A program made the position numbers and the translations under genes. Source: Candidatus Hodarchaeota archaeon (GTDB lineage Archaea; Asgardarchaeota; Heimdallarchaeia; Hodarchaeales; Hodarchaeaceae). Taken from it: a DNA stretch of 64,000 nucleotides. The notes under the pieces are model-generated. The model did no database searches. It saw only the letters and a program-made list of their open reading frames with translations, and had not been told where the DNA came from. Location: positions 1-64,000 of the forward strand of contig JAEOTM010000076.1 of NCBI GenBank assembly GCA_016839815.1, given 5' to 3'. Positions 1 to 54,568 of the stretch are shown one piece after another (position 1 is the first letter of the stretch; each line of letters starts with the position of its first letter).

Positions 1-753
1 GATACCCGCAATCCCACTGGAGGTTAAGATTAATCCAAATGTAAAGAATCCTGAGATAAAATAGTCAAATTGAGTTAATTCGGTACTTACTACATTCTCA
101 AAAACTGAATGGAAATTTCCTGCTGTTACTTCTATGCCATAAAGTTGCGATTGGAAATTATCTAATGCATTTTCGACTTCTGTAAGGCCAGTTTGAAATG
201 CTAAGAAGCTGGGATCACCTAAAATGTTAATCGTTAAATTTTGGTTACGAATTAACGTATGATCTACAATAGGTTGTCCAGTTAGAATTATTTCCCTAGC
301 GTTAAGACCTGATAAAACCGCAAGAGAGAAATCACTCGGGATCACAATTCCGATGGATACAACCCTACTTTGCACAGAAACTAATGCTTCATCTATAGAT
401 TCGAATTCAGTCATCCTAAATGTACTATTTGAGATGTCTAAATTTGTTTGATCTTCTAAACTCTTCACGAAATATGCTCCAAACCCTTCTGTAAATGGAT
501 TAGATGATTCGTTCTCTTTCCATTTCTTTGTCGCATTTGTAAAGCTCTCCTCCCATTCAGGTTGTATAAGACTAGAATCATCAAGATTAACAATTCCAAG
601 AGACACGGTTGTCTCATCATATCCACTTCCTCCAAATATAAAGGCAAATATGAAAATAAAAAAGATGGGGAAGCCTATAATAAGAGTCATCCGAGCTGGC
701 GAACGAATGACTTGTTTAAAGGATCGAATGAAAACTTTTATTGTCATATCCAT
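1..753 (-). CDS. ABC-2 type transporter permease (partial, runs off window start)
   Basis: Not in ORF track. Manual translation from ATG at 753 (abuts the TAA of the upstream permease) gives MDMTIKVFIRSFKQVIRSPARMTLIIGFPIFFIFIFAFIFGG...SLGIVNLDD, paralogous to the N-terminus of 754..2124. Confidence 0.85.
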   Translation of the reverse strand, partial: MDMTIKVFIRSFKQVIRSPARMTLIIGFPIFFIFIFAFIFGGSGYDETTVSLGIVNLDDSSLIQPEWEESFTNATKKWKENESSNPFTEGFGAYFVKSLEDQTNLDISNSTFRMTEFESIDEALVSVQSRVVSIGIVIPSDFSLAVLSGLNAREIILTGQPIVDHTLIRNQNLTINILGDPSFLAFQTGLTEVENALDNFQSQLYGIEVTAGNFHSVFENVVSTELTQFDYFISGFFTFGLILTSSGIAGI

Positions 754-2124
754 TTAGACATCTCCTGTAAATCGTCTTATACTATAGAAAAACATCCCAA
801 ATACGAGTAGAAAAATGGAGGGAATGATTAAGAGCATTACTTCAGCCCAGACTTCAGAAATTGTAAACTCATATAACAAAATAGAGCGTAGAGCATTTAC
901 TGTGTGGGTTGTGGGTATAATATCCCATAAGATAAAATCACGAGCGACACCTGAAGCTGTCGGGACTGCGCTTGAGAACAGGGTGATCGTGGGAATTTCC
1001 ATAAACGCCCCAGACATAAATGCAATGGGGGTCATGAGAAACCCTGATGATTGTCCAGCAGTATCTGGAGAAGTAAAGATCCCTGCTAAAACAAATCCTA
1101 ATCCCGTTGTAAATATCGTTGTTACTAAGAGAACTGAAAAACCTTCAATTAAATTCCCGGCAGGACGAAAACCAAATAAGAGAATTGGTAAAATAAAGAG
1201 AATTCCCATTTGGAAAAAGGAAATGACAAATTGATAAATGGTTACTCCCATGATATATTCCCAAGGTTTGATGAGAGACAATCTAACTCGAGTGATGGTC
1301 TTTGTTTCCGCAAATTCGGTCACAAGAAATGCAGCCAGCATCCCTGATTGTGTTAGAATTCCAAATACAAGGATTCCGGGCATAATTGTGTCAAAAATGC
1401 TGTATTCCTTAAGTGCAACTGAACTAATCTCATACTCAATATTCCCCCCTGAAAATTGAAAATTATGGATATTCTCGGTAAATGATGTTAAGATCTTATC
1501 CAGAATTACTTTCACTATTGTATATCGAGTGTATCCTTCATCCCCGATAATCGTTATTTCCCCATTATCTGTTTTAGGTATGGGTGGCCCTAACCAAAAT
1601 GGATTATCATCGAGATACAGGCCTGTTTGAATGAAATTTGCATTGTTTACTGCAGAGAGGGTAGTATTAGAATAATTGTCTGGAAAGTAAACTACTGCAT
1701 CAATTTCTCTAGATTCAACATCATCTTTTGGATCAGAATTGTTTAACGCAATTTCTGTTGTATTATATTCTTCTATACTGAAGATTGGGATATCTCCTGG
1801 CACTCCTTCCTCATTAGTGTAGTTTATCGAACTCAAAGTTTGAATAAAATCATGTGCAAATCCATGGGTTAGTGTTTGATTTGAGATTCCAGTATTGTTT
1901 TCAGAATTTATAGTACGGAAATAATCTGCTAAGTCGTCAGCTATCCCTTCATCTTCATTCACGACTCCCAAGATATATGTTTCCGCGGTACCAAGTCCTA
2001 CACTACTAAAAGCAAACCAAAACATGAATGCCATAAACGCGGGTAAGGCAAGAAGGACAACTAATGATATTCTCATACGGATGAGTTCCTTCCCAAAACG
2101 TTTCGCAATTTCTAGGGGTAACAT
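754..2124 (-). CDS. ABC-2 type transporter permease
   Basis: N-terminal TM, large extracellular loop (LGVVNEDEG), then multiple TMs with MPGIL and FMSGAF motifs; directly downstream of an ABC ATPase. Confidence 0.9.
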   Translation of the reverse strand: MLPLEIAKRFGKELIRMRISLVVLLALPAFMAFMFWFAFSSVGLGTAETYILGVVNEDEGIADDLADYFRTINSENNTGISNQTLTHGFAHDFIQTLSSINYTNEEGVPGDIPIFSIEEYNTTEIALNNSDPKDDVESREIDAVVYFPDNYSNTTLSAVNNANFIQTGLYLDDNPFWLGPPIPKTDNGEITIIGDEGYTRYTIVKVILDKILTSFTENIHNFQFSGGNIEYEISSVALKEYSIFDTIMPGILVFGILTQSGMLAAFLVTEFAETKTITRVRLSLIKPWEYIMGVTIYQFVISFFQMGILFILPILLFGFRPAGNLIEGFSVLLVTTIFTTGLGFVLAGIFTSPDTAGQSSGFLMTPIAFMSGAFMEIPTITLFSSAVPTASGVARDFILWDIIPTTHTVNALRSILLYEFTISEVWAEVMLLIIPSIFLLVFGMFFYSIRRFTGDV

Positions 2125-8206: not shown

Positions 8207-8773
8207 ATGAAAGTGGAATATTTTATTCAATTTGCACTTACTCGAGATGATGTCATGTCAGAGGCAGTTACAAAGTTAGAATCTTATGCAATTAAGACAG
8301 TTTGTATGTCTGCTTCATTAACCGTTTTAAGCTATCTAGCAGGAGCCGTTGTCTTATATTTCCTATATCCAATCTTAGGGGCATTTTATCTTGGCCTTGC
8401 AGTGCTCACCCTCATAGTTAGCATGAAACTCCGTTGTACTCATTGTTACTATTTGGGGAAATACTGCAATTTCGGTTTGGGCAAGCTCGCCTCATTTCTC
8501 TTTAGTAAAGGAGATCCAAGTGAATTTAGTGATTCTAAAAAGGTCGGTATCACTGCAATCATGAGTTTTGGTACAATGCTCATTCCAGTAGTTGTTGGAT
8601 TACTGTTACTTGTAATTAATCTTTCTATAGGAACTTTAGGATTGTTAATTGGGTATATTCTTATCGGTATTGTACCAAATTTCCTTATACGAGGGGATTT
8701 GTGTGAGAAATGCATGCAGGGGGACCTTGGTTGTCCGAGTTATGATCGAATGCTGAAACGTAAGCTAGATTAG
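8207..8773 (+). CDS. Membrane protein with two Cys clusters
   Basis: About 4 TMs; CTHCYYLGKYC and CEKC...GCP motifs. Confidence 0.7.
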   Translation: MKVEYFIQFALTRDDVMSEAVTKLESYAIKTVCMSASLTVLSYLAGAVVLYFLYPILGAFYLGLAVLTLIVSMKLRCTHCYYLGKYCNFGLGKLASFLFSKGDPSEFSDSKKVGITAIMSFGTMLIPVVVGLLLLVINLSIGTLGLLIGYILIGIVPNFLIRGDLCEKCMQGDLGCPSYDRMLKRKLD

Positions 8774-9772: not shown

Positions 9773-10534
9773 TTACTTTTGTTTTCGTGAAATAATTACT
9801 AGGTATAATATACCAACTACAAGTAAAAATCCCTGAAATCCAGGAGTACTCGCGGTCTGAGTTGAAGTAGTCAGTTCATCTTGAGAAATCGTAACTGAGA
9901 CTGTCATTGTAGTACTCTCTTGCGGAGTACTGATGGTCATACTTGAGGAGCCTCGAGTTCCACCATGATACTCACTAAAGCTATCAGATACACCATATGC
10001 CCAAATGATGTCGATTTCACCAGATAAAGGGATATCACTATCATATTGATCTCCAGTAGCGAGAAGACGAGTAAACTCAATCGTTGTACTAGTTGTATTC
10101 TCGAGACCAGCATATGAGAGGATATCATTGGTTCCTCCCAGATCAGTGTCCTCTGGGTGGTTTGAGCCTGTTGCAACAAGGGAATAAGCATCTTTAATAA
10201 CAACGGTACCATTTGATTCTACCCATGCATAAATAATATCTGCATCCTTCATCTGCACTGATGGATTAAAACCTATAGCTAACCACCCTGTAGTTTTTAC
10301 AGTTATACCAATTGATATGTTAGTATCATCTATTACTTCCCAATTAAGATTATAATTCCCACCTCCAAGTGATAATGAGGAAGTATATTCATCTGAAGAG
10401 ATAACTCCATCAACTTCCGGTACTCGCAGTATGGAATATGTAAATGTGTAAGTACTGACCATTTGGATACTAGCGACGAGAAGAATAAAGGAGAAAAATA
10501 TAAGAAGTATTTTTATTGATTTTTTTTGTAACAT
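9773..10534 (-). CDS. DOMON-domain surface protein with PGF-CTERM-type sorting signal
   Basis: Signal peptide; GWLAIGF...MKDADI, TTIEFTR.L.TGD.YD, IIWAYG...YHG; C-terminal T-rich linker TPGF + TM + RKQK. Confidence 0.85.
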   Translation of the reverse strand: MLQKKSIKILLIFFSFILLVASIQMVSTYTFTYSILRVPEVDGVISSDEYTSSLSLGGGNYNLNWEVIDDTNISIGITVKTTGWLAIGFNPSVQMKDADIIYAWVESNGTVVIKDAYSLVATGSNHPEDTDLGGTNDILSYAGLENTTSTTIEFTRLLATGDQYDSDIPLSGEIDIIWAYGVSDSFSEYHGGTRGSSSMTISTPQESTTMTVSVTISQDELTTSTQTASTPGFQGFLLVVGILYLVIISRKQK

Positions 10535-10775: not shown

Positions 10776-12248
10776 TTGACTCAACTATATGAAATTAATA
10801 CCAGAGTGTGGTTATACTCTCTGCAGAAAGAACTTAACAGAAAACTAACCCTATTAACTATTCCTGATGAACTTTGGATCGATATTATTGAAAAAGGATT
10901 TGAGTGGATTTGGTTGATGGGAGTATGGGAACATTCTCCCCTTTCTCAAGAAGAATTAGCTAAACTTCCAGGTTTAGCTACAGAGATAACGAAAGCTTTT
11001 CCCTCTTGGGCCCCTATCGATGTAATTGGTTCACCTTATTCAATCATAGATTATAAATTAAATTCGATGTTAGGCAAACCAGGAGATTTACAACGTCTCA
11101 AGCAAAAATTAAATGATTTTGGAGCTAGATTGATTCTAGATTTCGTTCCTAACCATTATGGAAATGCTTCTAAGTTGGTCTTGACAAACCCAGAATTTTT
11201 TATTTCAATCGAAGACACACCAAATGATCAATCATTGTTTAAACTGGTAAATACCAAAAAAGGAAAACGCTGGATAGCCTATGGGAAGGATCCTTACTTT
11301 TCTCCATGGACTGATACATTTCAGTTGAATTACTTTAGTGAAAAGACACGTGAATACATGATCACAAAATTACGCGATATCGCTCTCGTATGTGATGGTA
11401 TTCGATGTGATATGGCTATGTTATGTCTGAATGAAATTATTCAGAAAACTTGGGGGCTTTATCTTGACGGAAATAAAGCTGCTGAGCCAAATAGATCTGA
11501 ATTCTGGACTCAGGCAATTGAAACTATTAAAACCGATCATCCCAACTTTCAATTTCTCGCAGAAGTATATTGGAACCTTGGTGGACGATTACAACAAATG
11601 GGGTTTGATTATACTTATGATAAAGACCTGTATGATTTACTAGAATCAGGTTCTGCAGAAAAAATTCACTCCCATATCAATTCAAGCAATAAGACTCTAT
11701 CAAATACAATTAGTTTTATCGAGAATCATGATGAAAAACGAGCTATTGAAGTTTTTGGAAGAAAAAGATCAATTGCAGCAGCTATTGTTATGGGTACCCT
11801 TCCTGGGATGAGTTTATACCATCAAGGTCAGTTAGAGGGGATGAAGATAAAAATTCCTGTTCAGTTGAGACAGAAACAGTCAGAATATCCTGATAATGAA
11901 ATTAAATCTGTATATAATCGTATTCTTGGATTTACACGACAAATAATTTACAATCATGAAATATGGTCAATGTTATCTTCCTCAAATCCCCATGTCCTCG
12001 CTTGGCAATGGAGTACTCCTAATTCCGATAAGTACCGTCTCGTAGCAGTTAACTATTCATCCACTCCTGCTCAAGGACATATTTTTCTTCTCAAAGAATT
12101 CATTCAAAGCCATATTGAACAATTTATCTTTAATGATATCTTGAATCAGGAGAAATATAAGTGGGATAGTATACACTTATCTAAACACGGTCTTTATGTC
12201 GATCTTCCCCCGTTTGAGAGTCATCTCTTCACTGTAAATCCAATCTAG
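10776..12248 (+). CDS. Alpha-amylase family glycoside hydrolase (GH13)
   Basis: LDFVPNH, catalytic GIRCDMA (D), FLAEVY (E), IENHDE (D). Confidence 0.9.
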   Translation: MTQLYEINTRVWLYSLQKELNRKLTLLTIPDELWIDIIEKGFEWIWLMGVWEHSPLSQEELAKLPGLATEITKAFPSWAPIDVIGSPYSIIDYKLNSMLGKPGDLQRLKQKLNDFGARLILDFVPNHYGNASKLVLTNPEFFISIEDTPNDQSLFKLVNTKKGKRWIAYGKDPYFSPWTDTFQLNYFSEKTREYMITKLRDIALVCDGIRCDMAMLCLNEIIQKTWGLYLDGNKAAEPNRSEFWTQAIETIKTDHPNFQFLAEVYWNLGGRLQQMGFDYTYDKDLYDLLESGSAEKIHSHINSSNKTLSNTISFIENHDEKRAIEVFGRKRSIAAAIVMGTLPGMSLYHQGQLEGMKIKIPVQLRQKQSEYPDNEIKSVYNRILGFTRQIIYNHEIWSMLSSSNPHVLAWQWSTPNSDKYRLVAVNYSSTPAQGHIFLLKEFIQSHIEQFIFNDILNQEKYKWDSIHLSKHGLYVDLPPFESHLFTVNPI

Positions 12249-13280: not shown

Positions 13281-14102
13281 TCAATCAACCCATGAGAGAT
13301 GGAGGTTTAAGGCGATGAGAGCGACTATTGCTATTATTATCTGAATATGAATCCCTCTCGCAATTCTACGAGCATTTTTCATCAATGGTGCTTTTTTCCA
13401 CCAATTTATTCTTAGAATAAGTCCTGCTAACGATAAATAGACTCCATAAGCCATTGCTGTCCACGCAAAGAAAAAATTTGGTCCATTATGATCCTCAAAC
13501 AAGCTGATCATATGAAGAATCACGAAGATACATAACATAAGACATCCGATACAATGAATATTTAGTAAAACTCTCCGAATTGTAAAGTAAATGGATTTAC
13601 TCAGTTTTTTAGGATTATATATTCTAACTCCATCATTTTCTTCTTCAACCATTCCTTTATTTCGATAATAGCTATATTTCATGACAATTTTTTCTAATGT
13701 ATAAACTATTAGATCTTTCAAGTATATCCACAGTACGAATGGTAAGATTAAGATTAGTACAAAAGAATTTGCTGTTTCTCCAAATGATTTTCCTAAATCT
13801 TTCTCTGTCTCCAGTGAAAGATCAAGGTTTGATTTAAGTAAATCAGCAGTTAGAGCAAATAATAGAAGTAATGAGAGCGAAAAAAGAAGAGTTCTAGGAT
13901 ATTTCACCTGTTTCTTGATTGCACGATTTCCCGTCTTTTTAAGTAGTAGAATGAGTTCGCCACTCAACAGAGTTCCTTCCAGTATGGAATTAGAGCAATA
14001 CTTCCAGATCTGACCCGTATCCTTTAATAAAGTTACTTTTTTTAATGGTAGGGTATGTAGTCGTAAGGAACGATTATGAGGTAATAAGACTATGAAAATC
14101 AA
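13281..14102 (-). CDS. Membrane protein with four TM histidines (cytochrome b/ferric-reductase-like); real start probably near 13907-13967
   Basis: Paired His in two TM helices: NIHCIGCLMLCIFVILHM and GIHIQIIIAIVALIALNLHL. The 5' part of the ORF overlaps the hcp start and probably its promoter. Confidence 0.6.
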   Translation of the reverse strand: MIFIVLLPHNRSLRLHTLPLKKVTLLKDTGQIWKYCSNSILEGTLLSGELILLLKKTGNRAIKKQVKYPRTLLFSLSLLLLFALTADLLKSNLDLSLETEKDLGKSFGETANSFVLILILPFVLWIYLKDLIVYTLEKIVMKYSYYRNKGMVEEENDGVRIYNPKKLSKSIYFTIRRVLLNIHCIGCLMLCIFVILHMISLFEDHNGPNFFFAWTAMAYGVYLSLAGLILRINWWKKAPLMKNARRIARGIHIQIIIAIVALIALNLHLSWVD

Positions 14103-14703
14103 TCAGACCCAAAAAGTAATGATTACGATTGTTTTATCGATAGCTGTCTTTTCTAGCATTTTAATCACGATAATTAATCAGCAATCAGCCACTGCAAGTA
14201 TAGATGGATCTACTGATATATCCGCTGTAGCTACTTCGTTATATCTGAAGCTTACCGGCGAAACCCAAGGTGATATCAATGGTGGTGTCACTAGAGCTTC
14301 ATATGAAAATTGGATTGAAGTTCTGAGTTATTCACATACTATCAAGGCTCCCTACGATCCTGATACAGGTCTTCCTACTGGGAAACGTCAACACTCTCCG
14401 TTTCGAGTAACAAAATCAATAGATCAAGCCACCCCCTTATTGATGAGTGCACTTTCAAACAATGAATTACTTGTTAGTTTCGAATTTCGAATTTTAACCC
14501 CCTCAAATACAGGTCAAGAGGTTCATCTGATGACTATTGAGCTTCACAATGCGCGTATTGTTTCGTATCAAGGATCTGGATCAACTGCTTTTGATTCTAA
14601 TGTACTTACCGAGACATTCTCCTTTGTGTACACCAAAATAACTTGGACGTGGATGGATGGTGGTATTACTTCTGAAGATGACTGGAATCCTCCACCTGTA
14701 TAA
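14092..14703 (+). CDS. hcp: Hcp/TssD-family (type VI secretion tube) protein with N-terminal signal peptide
   Basis: YLKLTGETQGDI.G, WIEVLSYSH, TGLPTGKRQHSPFRVTKSIDQATPLL..AL..NE.L, TIEL.NARIV, E.FSF.Y.KITWT, DDW match the Hcp1 pattern along its length. Residues 1-35 are n/h/c signal-like, ending SATA. Confidence 0.9.
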   Translation: MKINQTQKVMITIVLSIAVFSSILITIINQQSATASIDGSTDISAVATSLYLKLTGETQGDINGGVTRASYENWIEVLSYSHTIKAPYDPDTGLPTGKRQHSPFRVTKSIDQATPLLMSALSNNELLVSFEFRILTPSNTGQEVHLMTIELHNARIVSYQGSGSTAFDSNVLTETFSFVYTKITWTWMDGGITSEDDWNPPPV

Positions 14704-14726
14704 AGCTACGAATGCATCAATTATAG

Positions 14727-15407
14727 TTGATTAGCATGCGACATAATAAATTCAGCCCTTGGCTAATTATTGCAATTTTTATTTCTCTTACTCCCGCAGC
14801 TGCAATTACCGAACCTGTGGAAGTATTAAATATCTACCATGAAGGGGCACTGATTTCTGTTCAACTTACAGATTATTCTTTAGCGGATCGAGATCGAGAA
14901 GATTGTTTTGTTCTTTTCATTGTGATTTCACCTACTGAAGATCCATTCGAAATTCATGCAGCCATTCTACTGTTTGAGACGGCTGGTGGAGGATCACACT
15001 ATTGTTTTTGGATCCTTGAAAATCCTTATTTCAGTGCCACATGGCATTCAGGATATGTAAATGAGCATTTCTTTGTAATGGACCTTCAATATGATTTTAT
15101 GTTTAGTGAGTATACCCATATCGCAAGCCCCTCTGTCTCAATCCTTGCTCTTGCGGGGATTATTCCAAGTTTCCCAGTAAGTTCTGAAACAAATGAGTTT
15201 TCTCCAATTTTGGATGAGTTTGCTGACATACTATTGACCTACAACGTTACTATCTCTCCTCCTGTTACTACTTCATCTACCACTACAACATCTACATCAA
15301 TCCCCTTATCTACAACAACTGACTCCATTAGCTCAGGAATAGGTGTACTTCTAGGACTTCTGACATTATTTTCTGTGGTAATCCTTAGAACCAAGAAAAA
15401 TCGATGA
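14727..15407 (+). CDS. Exported protein with S/T-rich linker and C-terminal membrane anchor
   Basis: Signal peptide ending PAAA; C-terminal PPVTTSSTTTTSTS...TM + RTKKNR; 23 nt downstream of hcp. Confidence 0.75.
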   Translation: MISMRHNKFSPWLIIAIFISLTPAAAITEPVEVLNIYHEGALISVQLTDYSLADRDREDCFVLFIVISPTEDPFEIHAAILLFETAGGGSHYCFWILENPYFSATWHSGYVNEHFFVMDLQYDFMFSEYTHIASPSVSILALAGIIPSFPVSSETNEFSPILDEFADILLTYNVTISPPVTTSSTTTTSTSIPLSTTTDSISSGIGVLLGLLTLFSVVILRTKKNR

Positions 15408-15512
15408 ATTATCCTCTTCCCTCCCTTTTTTAAGAATATTGAGAATTCCTAAATCAACATTACTCATGGGGAAAAAACCAGAGAGATCCTGAATCTCGTT
15501 ATTTACTGTTGT

Positions 15513-21169: not shown

Positions 21170-22423
21170 TTATAAGTAGGTTGAGCTGCCAAAGTACCCT
21201 TCTTCTCCAAGTGTCACACTGGAGAGCAAAAAAGCATTTACACCAACTCCATCTCCATTATCATCATAATGCGGATGCTCTGCTCTACTATCCATTACTA
21301 AGGCATAATTAAAGGCTTCTCTCATCGAAATAAAGCCGTCAGTATTTACATCATGCCAAGTAACAGGTGTACCGTCAGGTGTTTGCATATTTACAGCAAC
21401 CATGAAATGATATACAAATTCGTCATATGATCCTTCATTGTCACATGACCATGAGCTTTCAGTCCCAGAGGCTGCAGTCATAATAACACGATTGGATCCA
21501 GATAGCGCAGGTATGAAAATACCTGAATTACATTGTTCCATGACGATTATCATCTTAGCATAATCTATTGGATCTAATACTTCTGCAAAATGTTCTGGAG
21601 ATATCGTTTCGTAATAATACAAACATAATCCTTCTTCCCACCCATGGTTTGTTGTGTATATAAACAAACTATCTTTTGGATCCATAATTTGTGCAAGGTA
21701 GTTAAATGTGTTGTTGAAATGCTGTGAATTGGCAGAAATATTGACAGGCATATCTGTATCTTCTGCTATTCCATCTTTATAAATAACAATGATATTTTGT
21801 GGGTCATAAGCGTATTTATTAACAAGGATTGAATACATGAATTTCAAATCGTTCCAATACCGGCTATAGGCTTTAGCAGCACGATAACCTCCACTGATTA
21901 AAACAGCATATCTATTCGCATATGTTTGAGCTGAATAATTCATAAGAATATGATAAATGCTTTCTCTGTACTGTGGATGTCTTGTCATTACGGTATATGA
22001 GGATTTTTCAAGAAGATACTCAAGTCCACCTACTCCTTCCGATTCTTCTGCCCAAGTTATATTTCCTTTAATCCTAATCCAGCTACCTGTTTCACGAGAA
22101 AGTACACTTGGTACGTCTCCTAATACTTCCATATACTTTGTGGTAGGTATAATAGTATTTTGTTGAAAATCATCCACATTTTTGAGTAATAGCGCCTTGT
22201 GTGATCCACCAAGAACATAATATCCTTCCATGGTCACAATCTTGCCTAAAAATTGTGTTACATTTTCCATTACTTCAGTAATATCCCGCGGAACGTCTTC
22301 CTCGGGAATTCCAGGAGGGGGAATTTCAGGAGGGGAAATTTCAGTAAAATAGTAAAATTGGAACATATTTGCTCCAAGAAGAACAATGACTAATATCAAA
22401 AGAACACTTGTTGTTTTTCCCAT
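21170..22423 (-). CDS. Membrane-anchored C13-family (legumain/GPI8-like) cysteine peptidase
   Basis: N-terminal TM, Pro-rich linker; YAVLISGG, RYWND, His in YTTNHG, Cys in MEQCNSG, IMTAA..ESSW; Ca-loop-like DVNTDGFIS..E. Confidence 0.8.
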   Translation of the reverse strand: MGKTTSVLLILVIVLLGANMFQFYYFTEISPPEIPPPGIPEEDVPRDITEVMENVTQFLGKIVTMEGYYVLGGSHKALLLKNVDDFQQNTIIPTTKYMEVLGDVPSVLSRETGSWIRIKGNITWAEESEGVGGLEYLLEKSSYTVMTRHPQYRESIYHILMNYSAQTYANRYAVLISGGYRAAKAYSRYWNDLKFMYSILVNKYAYDPQNIIVIYKDGIAEDTDMPVNISANSQHFNNTFNYLAQIMDPKDSLFIYTTNHGWEEGLCLYYYETISPEHFAEVLDPIDYAKMIIVMEQCNSGIFIPALSGSNRVIMTAASGTESSWSCDNEGSYDEFVYHFMVAVNMQTPDGTPVTWHDVNTDGFISMREAFNYALVMDSRAEHPHYDDNGDGVGVNAFLLSSVTLGEEGYFGSSTYL

Positions 22424-51841: not shown

Positions 51842-54568
51842 ATGCGTAGAATAGGATTTCTGCAAAAAAAAGGTCTTGTTTTGTTGTTGTTTATTGTTTT
51901 CCCACTTATAGGCAGTTTTGGGTATAATTCTAATTTAGCTGTGAGAATAACTGCATCTACTTCTAATATTTATCAAGAGACTGATGATTTTCATCCTCAA
52001 AGAAACTACATCTCTTCTATTCCATCTGATTTAGTTTCGATCCAGTCACCAATTTCAACAGAGATATTTGATGTTAATGCTAGCTTTGAAGAAAAATTAA
52101 GCTTAATTAATCCATTAAAGGATGATACACTGACTGGGAAAGATATCAAAATCGCAGTTTTAGATTCTGGAATAAATAATTCACTTTGGATAAGAGAAAC
52201 TTCAATTATCAACCGCTCAAGAGTAGTTGCTAGTGTTTCTTTTAACGATAGTATCGGACATGGGACACTGGTTGGAAGTATTATCTCTAAAATAGCTCCA
52301 GAGTCCAATCTATACAGCATTAAGGTTGTCGATGAATCAGGGGTAGCAACCCAAGAAAATGTTGAGAAGGGACTACTTCTCGCTCTCTCTTTGAATGTGT
52401 CAATTATTCATGCTTCACTTGGATCACAGGATATAATGGCTATTAATTCGTCTTTAATCTCAAGCTTAATAAACAATAATATCTCTCTAATAGTATCTGG
52501 GGGAAATAACGGCCCCTTTGGTAGTAGTATTACTTCTCCAGCGATTTTCAATGAAGTGATAGCTGTAGGCATGACCTACAATCAAACATACATACCCTCC
52601 ATCTCTTCTGTTGGTCCACGGCCTTCAGGTATACTAGGTCCAGATATAGTTGCCCCAGGAGTATATATTCCTTCCTACAATAATTCAGAAACCTACCAAA
52701 ATGTTTCAGGAACCTCTTTCTCTGCACCATTTGTTACTGGCTCTGTTGCGCTTTTACGTCAGGCTTTTCCAAAAATTTCTCCATTAACCATAAAAACTGC
52801 TCTTCTTTCTTCTGCAACTTTTATTGAGGGTATTTCACCTTCTCGACAAGGTAATGGTCTCCTCAATGTAGTAGAAGCTTATAATGTTCTTGAAGAGGTA
52901 AATAAGTCTCCTTTAATTACTTTCACACCTAGAGAAATATCATCCGATTTTTATTACTTCGGTCAATCGATAAATGGACAAAATCAGACGTATAATTTAG
53001 GTATTTATTCCTCATTGAAATGTAATTTAACAAAGATGGATAGCAGCACATTACTTCCAATCATTGCAGAAATACCACAAACTGACAGTTCCAATCTCAA
53101 AATACCCATCAATGTGGGATTCAATTCAATCAAGTTATCTCTCACCATCCCAGAGACACTATCTATGAATGAATGGATTGGTAATATTATATTCGATTTT
53201 GAATATAATAAATCATTTATGGGTAATAAACCTCTTGAACACCTGACTCAAAGAGAAATACCAGTTCATATCGAAAATCGCTATCCTGGAGGACGAATTC
53301 TTTTCTATCAGGGCTATGATAACGATAGTTTTATTCCCGATGGACCCACAGGTAGATTTAGCCAGTTACATTACTTTTTTGAAGATATATTTGGGATGCA
53401 AACTATAGGGGCAATCCCAGCAACTCTCGGGTTGTCCATCGCAGGTCCACTTCAAAATACTGCTTCATCACAAGGTAATATTTCCCCAGAAGACCTGGAG
53501 AACTATGATATTCTTGTCTTGGCTGACATTGAGAAAGGATTAGCAGAAGAAGACAATAAAATTATTCACGAATGGGTAAACGATGGTCATTCATTACTTG
53601 TTCTCTCATATCCTTCCTTCACTATAGGTCAGACTGAATATTTATCAAATCGGACAGCAGTAAATTTACTTTTAGAACCGTTTGACCTATCAATTGATGA
53701 AGATTCCTCTAATTTCACAATGAACCGGTTTATACAGGCCGAGCTCGCCCCTTCAAGTCCAATTGATGATATTGACGGTCTTATGTTTGACTATAATGGT
53801 ACTTCTGTGAGTGTAAGCCCAGGTGGTTACGCTGAAGTACTTGCTACTGCTACAAATGTGCTTAATGATACTGATGATATCCCAATTGCTGGTTTCTGGC
53901 ACAATCCTGATACGAATGGAAAAGTAGTCGCATTCGGAAGTTTAGATCCGTTTAGGGACAGTAACTTCTACTCACCTAATCTTAATCATAACTTTTATCT
54001 AGCCTCTCAAATCTTCCGCTGGCTGATACGAGATCAAGAACCTGCCATGGATGTAAATCTTGCCGGAAATCCTAGTAAGGGGACATCTACTAAGATTCAA
54101 ATCTCTTTTCCAGATGCTGATCCCACTGGGGATTTCAATGGAACAATAGTTGAACCAAATGGGTCTTATACGCAAATTACTTTTAAATTCAAGGTCAATG
54201 CTTATATTGGATCATGGAAACCACTAAAGACAGGTACTGCTATTTTATGGTTAAATCTCCATATAGAAGGATACGTTCCCTCAAATGGGTTATTTATTCT
54301 TACAGTGTACAACCCAGCTCAACAGGAAATCTTCTTGCTATTTCTCCTCTCGAGTTTTATCATTTTTGCTGTTGTATATTATTGGATTTCATCCCGTAGA
54401 TCAAAACCACGGCTTACACTTCAAGAACAGTTAGCCATGCAATACACGAAACCTAATGCACATGTAGGTACAAAATCTATGGAACCAGGTGAAATCTGTA
54501 CTCGGTGTCGTACTCCCCGTCATAATGACAATTCACACTATTGCTACAAATGTGGTAAAGAACTGTGA
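51842..54568 (+). CDS. Membrane-anchored S8 subtilase with C-terminal GATase/DUF4350-like domain, TM and cytosolic zinc ribbon (Site-1 protease-like architecture)
   Basis: Signal peptide; triad AVLDSG / GHGT / SGTSFSAP; oxyanion GNNG; YDILVLAD...GHSLLVL domain; TM; CTRC...CYKCG. Confidence 0.85.
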   Translation: MRRIGFLQKKGLVLLLFIVFPLIGSFGYNSNLAVRITASTSNIYQETDDFHPQRNYISSIPSDLVSIQSPISTEIFDVNASFEEKLSLINPLKDDTLTGKDIKIAVLDSGINNSLWIRETSIINRSRVVASVSFNDSIGHGTLVGSIISKIAPESNLYSIKVVDESGVATQENVEKGLLLALSLNVSIIHASLGSQDIMAINSSLISSLINNNISLIVSGGNNGPFGSSITSPAIFNEVIAVGMTYNQTYIPSISSVGPRPSGILGPDIVAPGVYIPSYNNSETYQNVSGTSFSAPFVTGSVALLRQAFPKISPLTIKTALLSSATFIEGISPSRQGNGLLNVVEAYNVLEEVNKSPLITFTPREISSDFYYFGQSINGQNQTYNLGIYSSLKCNLTKMDSSTLLPIIAEIPQTDSSNLKIPINVGFNSIKLSLTIPETLSMNEWIGNIIFDFEYNKSFMGNKPLEHLTQREIPVHIENRYPGGRILFYQGYDNDSFIPDGPTGRFSQLHYFFEDIFGMQTIGAIPATLGLSIAGPLQNTASSQGNISPEDLENYDILVLADIEKGLAEEDNKIIHEWVNDGHSLLVLSYPSFTIGQTEYLSNRTAVNLLLEPFDLSIDEDSSNFTMNRFIQAELAPSSPIDDIDGLMFDYNGTSVSVSPGGYAEVLATATNVLNDTDDIPIAGFWHNPDTNGKVVAFGSLDPFRDSNFYSPNLNHNFYLASQIFRWLIRDQEPAMDVNLAGNPSKGTSTKIQISFPDADPTGDFNGTIVEPNGSYTQITFKFKVNAYIGSWKPLKTGTAILWLNLHIEGYVPSNGLFILTVYNPAQQEIFLLFLLSSFIIFAVVYYWISSRRSKPRLTLQEQLAMQYTKPNAHVGTKSMEPGEICTRCRTPRHNDNSHYCYKCGKEL

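What the first reader, a model, noticed from the sequence alone, without database searches (positions are those of the whole stretch)
14092..15407. Orphan Hcp (T6SS/phage-tail tube) homologue with a signal peptide, paired with a membrane-anchored surface protein, in an apparent Asgard archaeon
Seen: residues ~48-200 follow the Hcp1/TssD pattern end to end (YLKL.G..QG.I.G, IEV.S.SH, TG..TGKRQH.P...TK..D.ATPLL, E...F.Y.KI.W, DDW). They are preceded by a basic n-region, a hydrophobic h-region and an SATA|S cleavage-like site. A second exported protein with a Thr/Ser stalk and C-terminal TM + basic tail starts 23 nt downstream. No sheath (TssB/C), VgrG, PAAR, baseplate or ClpV gene is in these 64 kb. 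Known: bacterial Hcp is cytoplasmic, has no signal peptide, and stacks as hexameric rings inside a contractile sheath. Inference: this Hcp was repurposed as a Sec-exported ring or tube protein (non-contractile surface tube, conduit or cargo-binding ring), possibly nucleated or tethered by the neighbouring anchored protein. That would be a minimal two-gene extracellular structure that I do not know to be characterised.
Basis: partly seen in the sequence, partly recalled or inferred. Interest (0 to 1): 0.9.

Follow-up and report, generated by a model that had tools for sequence, protein, structure and literature searches.

The report
Exported Hcp with anchored partner, Asgard
An Asgard (Hodarchaeales) archaeon with no injection machinery carries the bacterial type VI "syringe tube" protein Hcp behind an export leader, always next to the same surface-anchored partner gene, so a bacterial weapon part seems to have been reused as a two-protein cell-surface device whose job is still unknown.

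Summary
Window 14092-14703 encodes a true Hcp/TssD (PF05638 E 7e-33; TIGR03344 E 3e-36; model TM 0.91 to E. coli Hcp1) behind a basic and hydrophobic leader. The next gene encodes a signal peptide, an Ig-like domain, a Thr/Ser stalk and a C-terminal TM with a basic tail. The contig belongs to a Hodarchaeota-type Asgard genus. The genome has no TssC, sheath, VgrG, gp25 or PAAR, and neither do single-contig relatives.

New here:
- The pair is a self-contained cassette found in 23 of 400 phylum genomes. The two genes co-occur near-perfectly, are always adjacent and co-diverge.
- This genome has a second copy on contig C196.
- The partner family is tiny (87 representatives in 1.84 billion proteins) and ends in a Heimdall/Loki-CTERM-like sorting signal. 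The genome encodes heimdallarchaeosortase.
- Archaeal Hcp domains have purged N-glycosylation sequons (8 observed, 38 expected). Their cytoplasmic bacterial relatives and the partner have not. This is independent evidence that the Hcp domain is exported and must stay glycan-free.

Ring or tube assembly, leader cleavage and Hcp-partner binding remain unproven.

The scan found this module before on other DNA (at least 9 genomes, including this genome's C196 copy). I found no paper describing it.

The parts
14023..14046 (+). AT-rich TATA-like stretch (tttaataaa ... tttttttaat) 46-69 nt upstream of the Hcp start; candidate archaeal promoter
   Evidence: Read directly from the sequence. By eye only, not tested.
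14078..14082 (+). Shine-Dalgarno-like GAGGT, 9 nt before ATG 14092
   Evidence: Read directly from the sequence. It supports the upstream start that includes the leader.
14092..14196 (+). Hcp leader, residues 1-35: n-region MKINQTQK (+2), a 20-residue uncharged h-region, and c-region NQQSATA with an AxA-like site before S36. Either a Sec signal peptide or an N-terminal signal anchor.
   Evidence: the same tripartite leader occurs in all 35 archaeal homologues (n-region charge +1 to +5, uncharged run median 21). AF2 models it as helix 5-29.
14197..14232 (+). Ser/Thr-rich disordered linker, residues 36-47
   Evidence: pLDDT below 50 for residues 31-42. Across homologues the equivalent linkers are enriched in N-x-S/T sequons (29 observed, 20.6 expected). 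This copy has none.
14233..14703 (+). Hcp/TssD beta-barrel domain, residues 48-203, plus the stop codon
   Evidence: PF05638 and TIGR03344 above their cut-offs; PDB Hcp hits; Foldseek 4hkh_A TM 0.91; zero N-glycosylation sequons.
14736..14804 (+). Partner signal peptide (MRHNKFSPWLIIAIFISLTPAAA|I). ATG 14736 is the likely start; TTG 14727 is the longest ORF.
14805..15260 (+). Partner ectodomain: Ig-like beta-sandwich (ORF residues 29-147) plus helix 159-175. Conserved core motif FW.LGDP...W..G..EHF...L.FIE.
   Evidence: AF2 pLDDT above 90 over most of the domain. Only generic Ig-like structural matches, Z 6.5 or less. No Pfam, NCBIfam or PDB sequence match. The family profile finds 87 representatives in 1.84 billion proteins.
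15261..15335 (+). Thr/Ser-rich disordered stalk
   Evidence: 16 S/T in a 20-residue window; pLDDT below 50 for residues 180-202.
15336..15407 (+). C-terminal sorting-signal-like tail (GIGVLLGLLTLFSVVILRTKKNR) plus the stop codon: small motif, TM helix, basic tail. This is a degenerate form of the (P/S)G(F/Y)-TM-basic tail of the family.
   Evidence: Relatives score on Heimdall-CTERM NF045529 (best 23.9 bits, cut-off 24), and one scores on Loki-CTERM above its cut-off. The window copy itself gives no HMM hit.
15426..15431 (+). Oligo-T run 19 nt after the partner stop; candidate archaeal terminator closing a two-gene transcript
   Evidence: Read directly from the sequence. Not tested.

Best explanation
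The two genes form a self-contained cell-surface cassette derived from a bacterial T6SS tube protein.

Shown:
1. Gene 1 is a bona fide Hcp/TssD fold preceded by a conserved Sec-type leader.
2. Gene 2 is an orphan Ig-like surface protein with a glycosylatable stalk and a C-terminal (P/S)G(F/Y)-TM-basic signal of the Heimdall/Loki-CTERM type.
3. The genome encodes the matching heimdallarchaeosortase and an STT3/AglB oligosaccharyltransferase.
4. The genome has none of the five contractile-machine marker families searched (TssC, sheath, VgrG, gp25, PAAR).
5. The two genes are inherited, duplicated and diverge as one unit.

Inferred:
1. The leader takes the Hcp domain across the membrane. There it is either released by signal peptidase at SATA|S or held by the leader as an N-terminal anchor.
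2. The partner is exported, its C-terminal tail is removed by the sortase, and it is lipid-anchored on a glycosylated stalk. This is by analogy with ArtA substrates of Haloferax.
3. The Hcp domain works as a glycan-free oligomer, most likely the hexameric ring typical of the family, that docks on or encloses the partner's roughly 17-kDa Ig-like domain. The result would be a ring-on-a-stalk, or a short non-contractile tube, at the cell surface.

Its biological role (adhesion, cell-cell contact, cargo holding, protection) is not known.
For: Hcp identity and fold.

Leader conserved in 35 of 35 archaeal homologues, from four genome families (f1, f6, f19, f32) plus metagenome contigs.

Export supported independently by sequon statistics:
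- Archaeal Hcp domains carry 8 N-x-S/T sequons against 37.8 +/- 5.3 expected (0 of 500 shuffles as low).
- Partner ectodomains carry 43 against 39.3 expected.
- Canonical cytoplasmic relatives carry 83 against 63.6 expected.
- The two sequon positions conserved in the canonical relatives are lost in 39 of 39 archaeal forms, by many different substitutions. Bacterial-like signal-peptide forms keep the NAS position in 2 of 2 and the NIT-type position in 1 of 2.
- STT3/AglB is present.

Pairing:
- The next gene has the same architecture in about 29 of 34 loci, with gaps of -22 to +58 nt.
- Only these two genes are conserved across 16 loci.
- The partner profile hits the same 23 genomes as Hcp, with mostly matching copy numbers, and essentially nowhere else among 400 genomes.
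- Distant partner-family members also have Hcp directly upstream.
- Pairwise identities of Hcp and partner correlate: Mantel r 0.71, 0 of 2000 permutations as high.

Sorting:
- Heimdallarchaeosortase NF045528 scores 275.6 bits against a cut-off of 130.
- CTERM hits in relatives.
- 72 of 86 family representatives end in TM plus a basic tail.

No machine:
- for the own genome.
- (sheath, TssC, VgrG only) for five relatives, four of them single-contig.

Not contamination:
- Present in single-contig genomes of the genus.
- The neighbouring gene has orthologues only in the same genus.
- A named Hodarchaeota relative exists.
Against: - No experiment, and no oligomer model, shows rings or tubes for these proteins.
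- The long h-region (median 21 uncharged residues) and the conserved N-A-S/T sequon right at the putative cleavage site in many homologues fit an uncleaved signal anchor as well as a cleaved signal peptide.
- The window partner's own C-terminal tail (SGIG...) gives no CTERM HMM hit, and its relatives mostly score just under the cut-off.
- In family f6 the exported Hcp sits beside different exported proteins (Kelch propeller, NosD-like), so the Hcp can apparently work without this particular partner.
- Related genomes are not independent samples, so the co-occurrence and Mantel figures overstate the support.
Confidence: 0.7

Rival explanations
1. The leader is not cleaved. Hcp is a type II (N-in) membrane-anchored ectodomain on a short glycosylated stalk. 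It acts as a monomeric or low-order binding module (receptor or adhesin) beside the C-terminally anchored partner, without forming Hcp-type rings or tubes.
For: The uncharged run has a median of 21 residues, and AF2 models helix 5-29. Linkers are enriched in sequons, including the conserved VNAS/T motif that cleavage would destroy. In family f6 the Hcp pairs with other exported proteins.
Against: The Hcp domain has lost sequons over its whole surface, while the partner's Ig domain tolerates them. That is easier to explain if most of the Hcp surface is buried in an oligomer or complex. Every solved Hcp family member retrieved is an oligomeric ring or tube component (ring formation itself is established knowledge, not tested here). 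AxA-like sites follow the h-region in most homologues.
Confidence: 0.22
2. The Hcp ring is a periplasm-free 'chaperone or holder' whose lumen encloses the partner's small Ig-like domain. This would mirror how T6SS Hcp holds small effectors, so the partner is the cargo rather than the tether.
For: The partner ectodomain is about 150 residues, within the size range of Hcp-lumen effectors (established knowledge of T6SS Hcp-effector complexes). The two genes are strictly adjacent and co-diverge.
Against: No interface evidence exists. The partner is stalked and anchored like a structural surface protein. This is a sub-variant of the best explanation rather than a true alternative.
Confidence: 0.15
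3. The Hcp is the tube of a cryptic contractile or phage-tail-like machine (T6SS, eCIS, tailocin or provirus) encoded elsewhere or too divergent to detect.
For: The genome is only 89.5% complete. Only five marker families were searched in it, and three in the relatives.
Against: No TssC, sheath, VgrG/gpD, gp25 or PAAR in the own genome. No sheath, TssC or VgrG in five module-bearing relatives, including four single-contig assemblies. A leader that puts the tube subunit outside the membrane is incompatible with cytoplasmic assembly inside a sheath. Flanking genes differ from locus to locus and are metabolic.
Confidence: 0.03
4. Artefact: a bacterial contaminant contig in the bin, or a recently transferred decaying gene with a mis-called start.
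For: Bin contamination is estimated at 7.8%. The window's Hcp is closer to bacterial Hcps (about 50% identity) than to most same-genus copies (31-36%).
Against: The neighbouring gene has orthologues (45-65% identity) only in the same genus, partly in the same position relative to an Hcp pair. The partner belongs to the Asgard-only family. The pair occurs in single-contig genomes. Leader, fold and sequon purge are all conserved.
Confidence: 0.01

Closest known systems
Hcp / TssD, inner-tube protein of bacterial type VI secretion (PF05638, TIGR03344; solved examples: EAEC Hcp1 4HKH, P. aeruginosa Hcp3 3HE1, V. cholerae Hcp in 5MXN)
   Same: Full-length sequence and fold match. Conserved motifs such as TGKRQH and DDW. 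The nearest sequences are 162-aa Hcps of Desulfobacterota-type bacteria at about 50% identity.
   Different: Carries a 35-residue export or anchor leader plus a linker. Found in an archaeon with none of the T6SS/eCIS marker families searched (TssC, sheath, VgrG, gp25, PAAR). The surface loop before the last strands is about 10 residues shorter. All N-glycosylation sequons are purged. Always coupled to an orphan anchored Ig-like protein instead of VgrG, sheath or effectors.
Archaeosortase substrates: PGF-CTERM / ArtA proteins of Haloferax (e.g. the S-layer glycoprotein) and NCBIfam Heimdall-CTERM (NF045529) / Loki-CTERM (NF033507) proteins with heimdallarchaeosortase (NF045528)
   Same: The partner has a signal peptide, a Thr/Ser-rich stalk, and a C-terminal small motif, TM and basic tail. 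The cognate sortase is in the genome.
   Different: The ectodomain is an undescribed Ig-like family restricted to Hcp-linked genes. The window copy's motif is degenerate (SGIG instead of PGF) and does not reach the HMM threshold. Processing is inferred, not shown.
Phage and eCIS tail-tube proteins (Hcp-like fold, e.g. T4 gp19-type and Afp1-type tubes)
   Same: Same ancestral tube-protein fold, which self-assembles into hexameric rings.
   Different: Those assemble in the cytoplasm on a baseplate inside a sheath or with a tape measure. None of those genes is present here, and this protein is exported subunit by subunit.

Membership tests
Hcp/TssD (PF05638, TIGR03344) | Sequence matches the family HMMs above the curated cut-offs over the full length | tested here: met
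   PF05638 114 bits against 23.5, profile positions 1-129 of 129. TIGR03344 124.8 bits against 58.9.
Hcp/TssD (PF05638, TIGR03344) | Hcp beta-barrel fold | tested here: met
   AF2 pLDDT 88. Foldseek 4hkh_A E 4e-16, TM 0.91 by target, rmsd 2.1. 95 PDB matches at E 0.001 or below; 49 of the 50 listed are Hcp structures, and the other is a Hcp1-fused GspE.
Hcp/TssD (PF05638, TIGR03344) | Forms hexameric rings that stack into a tube | not testable with these tools
No coordinates were available to map interfaces. Whole-surface sequon avoidance is only indirect support.
Hcp/TssD as a T6SS component | Cytoplasmic, leaderless, and encoded with or used by sheath TssB/C, VgrG, baseplate and ClpV | tested here: not met
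   Leader present in all archaeal copies. TssC, sheath, VgrG, gp25 and PAAR not found in the own genome. Sheath, TssC and VgrG not found in five relatives.
Sec-type signal peptide or signal anchor | Positively charged n-region, hydrophobic h-region, polar c-region with small residues at -3 and -1 | tested here: met
   MKINQTQK, a 20-residue uncharged run, then NQQSATA|S. The same layout occurs in 39 of 39 signal-peptide forms. No twin-arginine motif (1 of 39). No class III [KR]-G/A motif at the n/h border, by inspection.
Sec-type signal peptide or signal anchor | Cleavage by signal peptidase I | not testable with these tools
   No SignalP or DeepTMHMM was available. The h-region length and the sequon at the site leave cleaved and anchored forms both open.
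Heimdall-CTERM / archaeosortase substrate (NF045529, NF033507) | C-terminal tripartite signal: short motif, TM helix, basic tail, preceded by a Thr/Ser-rich linker | tested here: met
   By inspection in the window protein (GIGV..., TM, RTKKNR) and in 72 of 86 family representatives.
Heimdall-CTERM / archaeosortase substrate (NF045529, NF033507) | Match to the curated CTERM HMM above its cut-off | tested here: not met
   The window partner has no hit at E 10 or below. 8 of 30 relatives hit NF045529, the best at 23.9 bits against a cut-off of 24. One relative (the L017 partner) passes Loki-CTERM at 20.5 against 19.9.
Heimdall-CTERM / archaeosortase substrate (NF045529, NF033507) | Cognate sortase encoded in the same genome | tested here: met
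   G000 C6 ORF matches NF045528 heimdallarchaeosortase, E 2.8e-82, 275.6 bits against 130.
eCIS / phage-tail-like particle | Tube gene accompanied by sheath, baseplate (gp25-like) and spike genes | tested here: not met
   PF04984, PF04965, PF05954 and PF05488 give no match in the own genome. PF04984 and PF05954 give no match in five relatives.

The most novel reading that the evidence does not exclude
Sec-exported Hcp subunits assemble outside the cell into glycan-free hexameric rings or a short non-contractile tube. This structure is docked on a sortase-lipid-anchored, stalked Ig-like protein. It would be a previously unknown kind of archaeal surface appendage, built from a captured bacterial T6SS part. 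It sits on the envelope of Hodarchaeales, the Asgard lineage closest to eukaryotes, and may serve cell-cell contact with syntrophic partners.
Probability: 0.3. Interest if true: 0.85.

Novelty: new variant of a known kind. Interest (0 to 1): 0.7.

Why it matters
Hcp is the textbook example of a protein that works only inside a contractile machine. It is made without a signal peptide, polymerised in the cytoplasm within a sheath, and fired.

This cassette shows the same fold living a second life. It is exported by the general secretion route in archaea that lack the marker genes of such a machine (sheath, TssC, VgrG, gp25, PAAR searched), and it is locked to one orphan surface protein.

That widens what the tube-protein fold can do. 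It is a clear case of bacterium-to-Asgard gene capture followed by re-tooling: a leader was added, glycosylation sites were purged, and a partner was recruited.

It also points to a defined, small, expressible two-protein component of the almost unknown cell surface of Hodarchaeales. Surface contacts with bacterial partners in this group are central to models of eukaryote origins.

The sequon-purge test may also be useful more generally. It is a sequence-only way to tell whether an archaeal homologue of a cytoplasmic protein has moved outside the cell.

Tried and rejected
- Complex prediction on the mature Hcp domain (residues 44-203, alignment A3) with the partner ectodomain (27-178, A4) returned 'no answer' (0.31, 0.32, 0.19; mark 0.32). 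It is not evidence either way.
- The search for related loci with the six-partner alignment failed for lack of a conserved stretch. With the three closest partners it found no named genome.
- The protein-atlas search on the partner ectodomain gave no usable hit.
- Structure searches with the partner model gave little. Foldseek PDB found nothing at E 0.001 or below. VIA-align wide found only generic Ig V-set-like matches, Z 6.5 or less. ESM Atlas gave TM 0.45 or less. A profile search against PDB sequences found nothing.
- One genome search (NadA among relatives) returned an error. The amylase-family neighbour was used instead.
- A class III (type IV pilin-like) signal was considered and rejected. 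No [KR]-[GA] cleavage motif precedes the hydrophobic run (inspection).
- Tat export was rejected. Only 1 of 39 leaders has RR.
- Donor inference was not pursued. The nearest leaderless Hcps carry Desulfobacterota names, and in the tree all signal-peptide forms lie outside one canonical clade. However, the bacterial sample was chosen by similarity to the query and the tree is unrooted, so I do not claim a donor or a single origin.
- Literature searches on Hcp, signal peptide, archaea, Asgard, Hodarchaeales and CTERM found no description of this module in the held library. That is not proof that none exists.
Full report
**1. The observation**

The window holds a 203-codon ORF at 14092-14703 (+) and, just downstream, a 226-codon ORF at 14727-15407 (+).
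- The first ORF matches Pfam T6SS_HCP across the whole profile (E 7.3e-33, 114 bits, cut-off 23.5). It also matches NCBIfam TIGR03344 'type VI secretion system tube protein TssD' (E 3.1e-36, 124.8 bits, cut-off 58.9) and thirteen solved Hcp sequences (best 3he1, E 1.2e-21).
- An AlphaFold2 model built on a 51-sequence alignment has mean pLDDT 88. It shows an N-terminal helix (residues 5-29), a disordered linker (about 30-47) and a beta-barrel (49-197).
- Foldseek places the barrel on E. coli EAEC Hcp1 4hkh_A (E 4e-16, TM 0.91 by target, rmsd 2.1 A). Hcp structures fill 49 of the 50 listed matches.
- So the Hcp assignment is not a chance motif match.

The start is supported.
- Residues 1-35 read MKINQTQK, then 20 uncharged residues, then NQQSATA before S36.
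- An SD-like GAGGT lies 9 nt upstream of ATG 14092, and an AT-rich TATA-like stretch lies 46-69 nt upstream.
- The next in-frame Met after M10, which precedes the hydrophobic run, is M118, inside the barrel. In-frame GTG/TTG codons between them were not checked.

The second ORF has a signal peptide, a confidently modelled Ig-like sandwich plus a helix, a disordered Thr/Ser stalk, a TM helix and an RTKKNR tail. Its real start is probably ATG 14736. That is the 223-aa form held in the database, and it agrees with the homologues' starts. An oligo-T run follows its stop codon.

**2. Organism and contamination**

The window is contig C17 of a 4.24-Mb, 206-contig genome, 89.5% complete with 7.8% contamination.
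- A same-genus contig carrying an 80%-identical copy of the genome's other Hcp is titled 'MAG: Candidatus Hodarchaeota archaeon isolate YT2_065'.
- The genome encodes an NCBIfam-equivalog heimdallarchaeosortase (275.6 bits, cut-off 130).
- The amylase-family gene 1.8 kb upstream of the Hcp has orthologues (45-65% identity) only in the same genus. In one of those genomes it again lies just upstream of an Hcp pair.
- Hcp is found in 17 of 21 genomes of the genus, including single-contig assemblies.
- The contig is therefore archaeal and belongs to this lineage. 'Asgard' is correct.

**3. No contractile machine**

TssC/VipB, phage/eCIS sheath, VgrG/gpD, gp25 and PAAR give no match in the own genome. 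Sheath, TssC and VgrG give none in five relatives that carry the pair, four of them single contigs at 70-96% completeness and one 70-contig assembly at 99%. The positive controls rang in each search.

**4. The pair is a conserved, self-contained cassette**

The genome has a second Hcp on contig C196. It has the same leader type and is followed immediately by a protein with the same architecture as the window's partner.

In a 400-genome sample of the phylum, PF05638 hits 26 genomes. These are 17 of 21 in the genus, 3 of 12 in family f6, 4 of 14 in f19, and one in f32, plus the own genome.
- All 35 archaeal Hcp ORFs I extracted have a positively charged n-region (+1 to +5), an uncharged run (median 21 residues) and a polar stretch rich in small residues.
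- In about 29 of 34 loci the next gene, 22 nt overlapping to 58 nt away, encodes a 220-290-aa protein. It has a signal peptide, an S/T-rich linker and a C-terminal (P/S)G(F/Y)-like motif, TM and basic tail.
- Across 16 loci with 7 kb of flank on each side, only these two genes are shared. Neighbours differ and are ordinary metabolic genes.
- A profile of the partner ectodomain hits 24 genomes, one a marginal hit (G365, E 9.6e-4). The other 23 are the same genomes as Hcp, with copy numbers that match apart from two extra hits in G064, one next to its Hcp and one orphan fragment. There are no such hits in the other 376.
- Searched against 1.84 billion representative proteins, the profile finds only 87. 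Nearly all are 200-316 aa with the domain in the same place, and 72 of 86 have the C-terminal anchor.
- Two divergent members that I looked up also have Hcp immediately upstream.
- Pairwise identities of Hcp domains and partner ectodomains over 27 pairs are correlated (Mantel r 0.71; 0 of 2000 permutations as high). The pair therefore duplicates and diverges as a unit.
- Related genomes are not independent samples, so these numbers overstate the case. The signal nonetheless spans three genome families with the partner (f1, f19, f32) and several paralogous lineages.
- The exception is family f6. There the exported Hcp is followed by other large exported proteins, a Kelch propeller and a NosD-like protein.

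**5. The partner and its sorting signal**

The ectodomain has no Pfam, NCBIfam or PDB sequence match. Structural similarity is only generic Ig-like (Z 6.5 or less).

The C-terminal tail is of the archaeosortase type.
- Eight of 30 partners hit NCBIfam Heimdall-CTERM, the best at 23.9 bits against a cut-off of 24.
- One partner passes Loki-CTERM (20.5 against 19.9).
- The window copy's motif is degenerate (SSGIGV...) and gives no hit.
- With the sortase in the genome, C-terminal processing and lipid anchoring is the most economical reading. It rests on analogy with ArtA substrates of Haloferax (established knowledge; review PMC6098224 listed) and is not shown here.

**6. Independent evidence that the Hcp domain is outside the cell**

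Archaeal oligosaccharyltransferase acts on N-x-S/T sequons on the outer face of the membrane, and the genome has an STT3/AglB (154 bits).

I counted sequons against composition-preserving shuffles.

| Region | Observed | Expected |
|---|---|---|
| 39 archaeal signal-peptide Hcp domains | 8 | 37.8 +/- 5.3 (0 of 500 shuffles as low) |
| 51 leaderless bacterial relatives | 83 | 63.6 |
| Partner ectodomains | 43 | 39.3 |
| Linkers in front of the Hcp domain | 29 | 20.6 |

Two sequon positions are conserved in the canonical relatives: N-I-T in 6 of 10 aligned rows and N-A-S/T or N-T-S in 8 of 10. Both are lost in 39 of 39 archaeal forms, through more than twenty different tripeptides. The two bacterial-looking signal-peptide forms both keep NAS, and one of them keeps NLT at the other position.

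Selection against sequons makes sense only if the domain meets the glycosylation machinery, which means it is translocated. That the whole domain is kept glycan-free while the neighbouring Ig domain is not suggests that most of the Hcp surface is engaged in protein-protein contacts. A ring, tube or tight complex would require this. That last step is an inference.

**7. What remains open**

- Cleavage versus anchoring of the leader. The AxA-like sites argue for cleavage. The long h-region and the frequent sequon exactly at the site argue for a retained anchor with a glycosylated stalk.
- Oligomeric state. It could not be modelled with the tools at hand.
- Contact between the two proteins. The one complex job gave no verdict (see the tried-and-rejected field).
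- Origin. The nearest leaderless Hcps (about 50% identity) are named for Desulfobacterota-type bacteria. All signal-peptide forms fall outside one canonical clade in an unrooted tree with a biased sample. That fits capture from sediment bacteria, but it does not prove a donor or a single event.
- The window copy's place in the genus. It belongs to a rarer, more bacterial-like lineage (with metagenome proteins P0002, P0003 and locus L005), whereas the C196 copy belongs to a common genus lineage.

**8. Comparison with what is known, and novelty**

By sequence and fold the first protein is a member of the Hcp/TssD family. As a system it fails the defining features of T6SS and eCIS: a cytoplasmic, leaderless subunit used with a sheath, spike and baseplate. 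The partner resembles archaeosortase substrates in layout, but its ectodomain is an undescribed family.

Full-text searches found no paper on signal-peptide Hcps in archaea or on this pair.

The scan itself has reported the same module before, in at least nine genomes, including this genome's C196 copy. My results agree with those notes. I add the sortase and CTERM evidence, the co-occurrence and co-divergence figures, the family census and the sequon-purge test.

I rate it a new variant of a known kind. It is surprising to specialists in both T6SS and archaeal envelopes, and it is readily testable. Interest 0.7.

Noticed in passing
G000 contig C196, about 67965-69200 (locus L002: Hcp 1426-2040 minus strand, partner 740-1426 minus strand): A second, paralogous Hcp-partner pair in the same genome. 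The Hcp domains are 41% identical and the partner ectodomains 24% identical to the window copy. The Hcp stop overlaps the partner start. The partner has a poly-Thr stalk and a clear GFPGF motif.
   Followed up: partly
L016, L023, L025 (genomes G049-G051, family f6): In this Asgard family the leader-bearing Hcp is followed not by the Ig-like partner but by larger exported proteins (more than 465 aa), one with Kelch beta-propeller repeats and one weakly NosD-like. The exported Hcp may have been re-paired with other surface proteins.
   Followed up: partly
L006 1535-2188 (protein P0065), and P0061: Bacterial-looking Hcps with a short classical signal peptide and a 40-residue Pro/Thr/Ala-rich extension. 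They have no Ig-like partner and sit next to sulfatase and Na/H-exchanger genes. They keep the canonical NAS sequon. Exported Hcps may therefore also exist in bacteria.
   Followed up: no
Protein P0057 (352 aa): A lipoprotein-like leader (LLLAGC) and an N-terminal domain of about 190 residues of unknown type, fused to a C-terminal Hcp domain. This is another non-canonical exported Hcp architecture.
   Followed up: no
L003 6525-9368 (JGI metagenome contig, 104 kb): Two Hcp-partner pairs in tandem on one contig, showing that the cassette duplicates as a unit.
   Followed up: partly
L011 and L013 partners (leader ...FALVGCTLSPSIA): Some partners carry a lipobox-like LVGC in the signal peptide as well as the C-terminal sorting tail. 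This hints at lipid anchoring at both ends, or at alternative processing.
   Followed up: no
window 10776-12248 and 8207-8773; G067 C142 48166-49641; L038 9378-9908: The amylase-family gene and a 188-aa gene near the window's pair have orthologues next to the Hcp pairs of two other species of the genus, although those pairs belong to a different Hcp lineage. The locus may be an old insertion site where the cassette was replaced or diverged fast.
   Followed up: partly
G064 C1 1008590-1008868: A partner-like fragment (profile positions 55-149, E 9e-29) with no Hcp hit nearby. It may be an orphan or decayed copy.
   Followed up: no
window 13281-14102 (-): A 273-codon multi-TM ORF on the opposite strand whose longest form overlaps the Hcp start by 11 nt. 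It has no Pfam match, and its TTG start is probably over-called.
   Followed up: no
window 9773-10534 (-), 21170-22423 (-), 51842-54568 (+): Other probable exported or surface proteins in the window: a DOMON-domain protein, a peptidase C13 (legumain-like) protein and a 908-aa subtilase.
   Followed up: no
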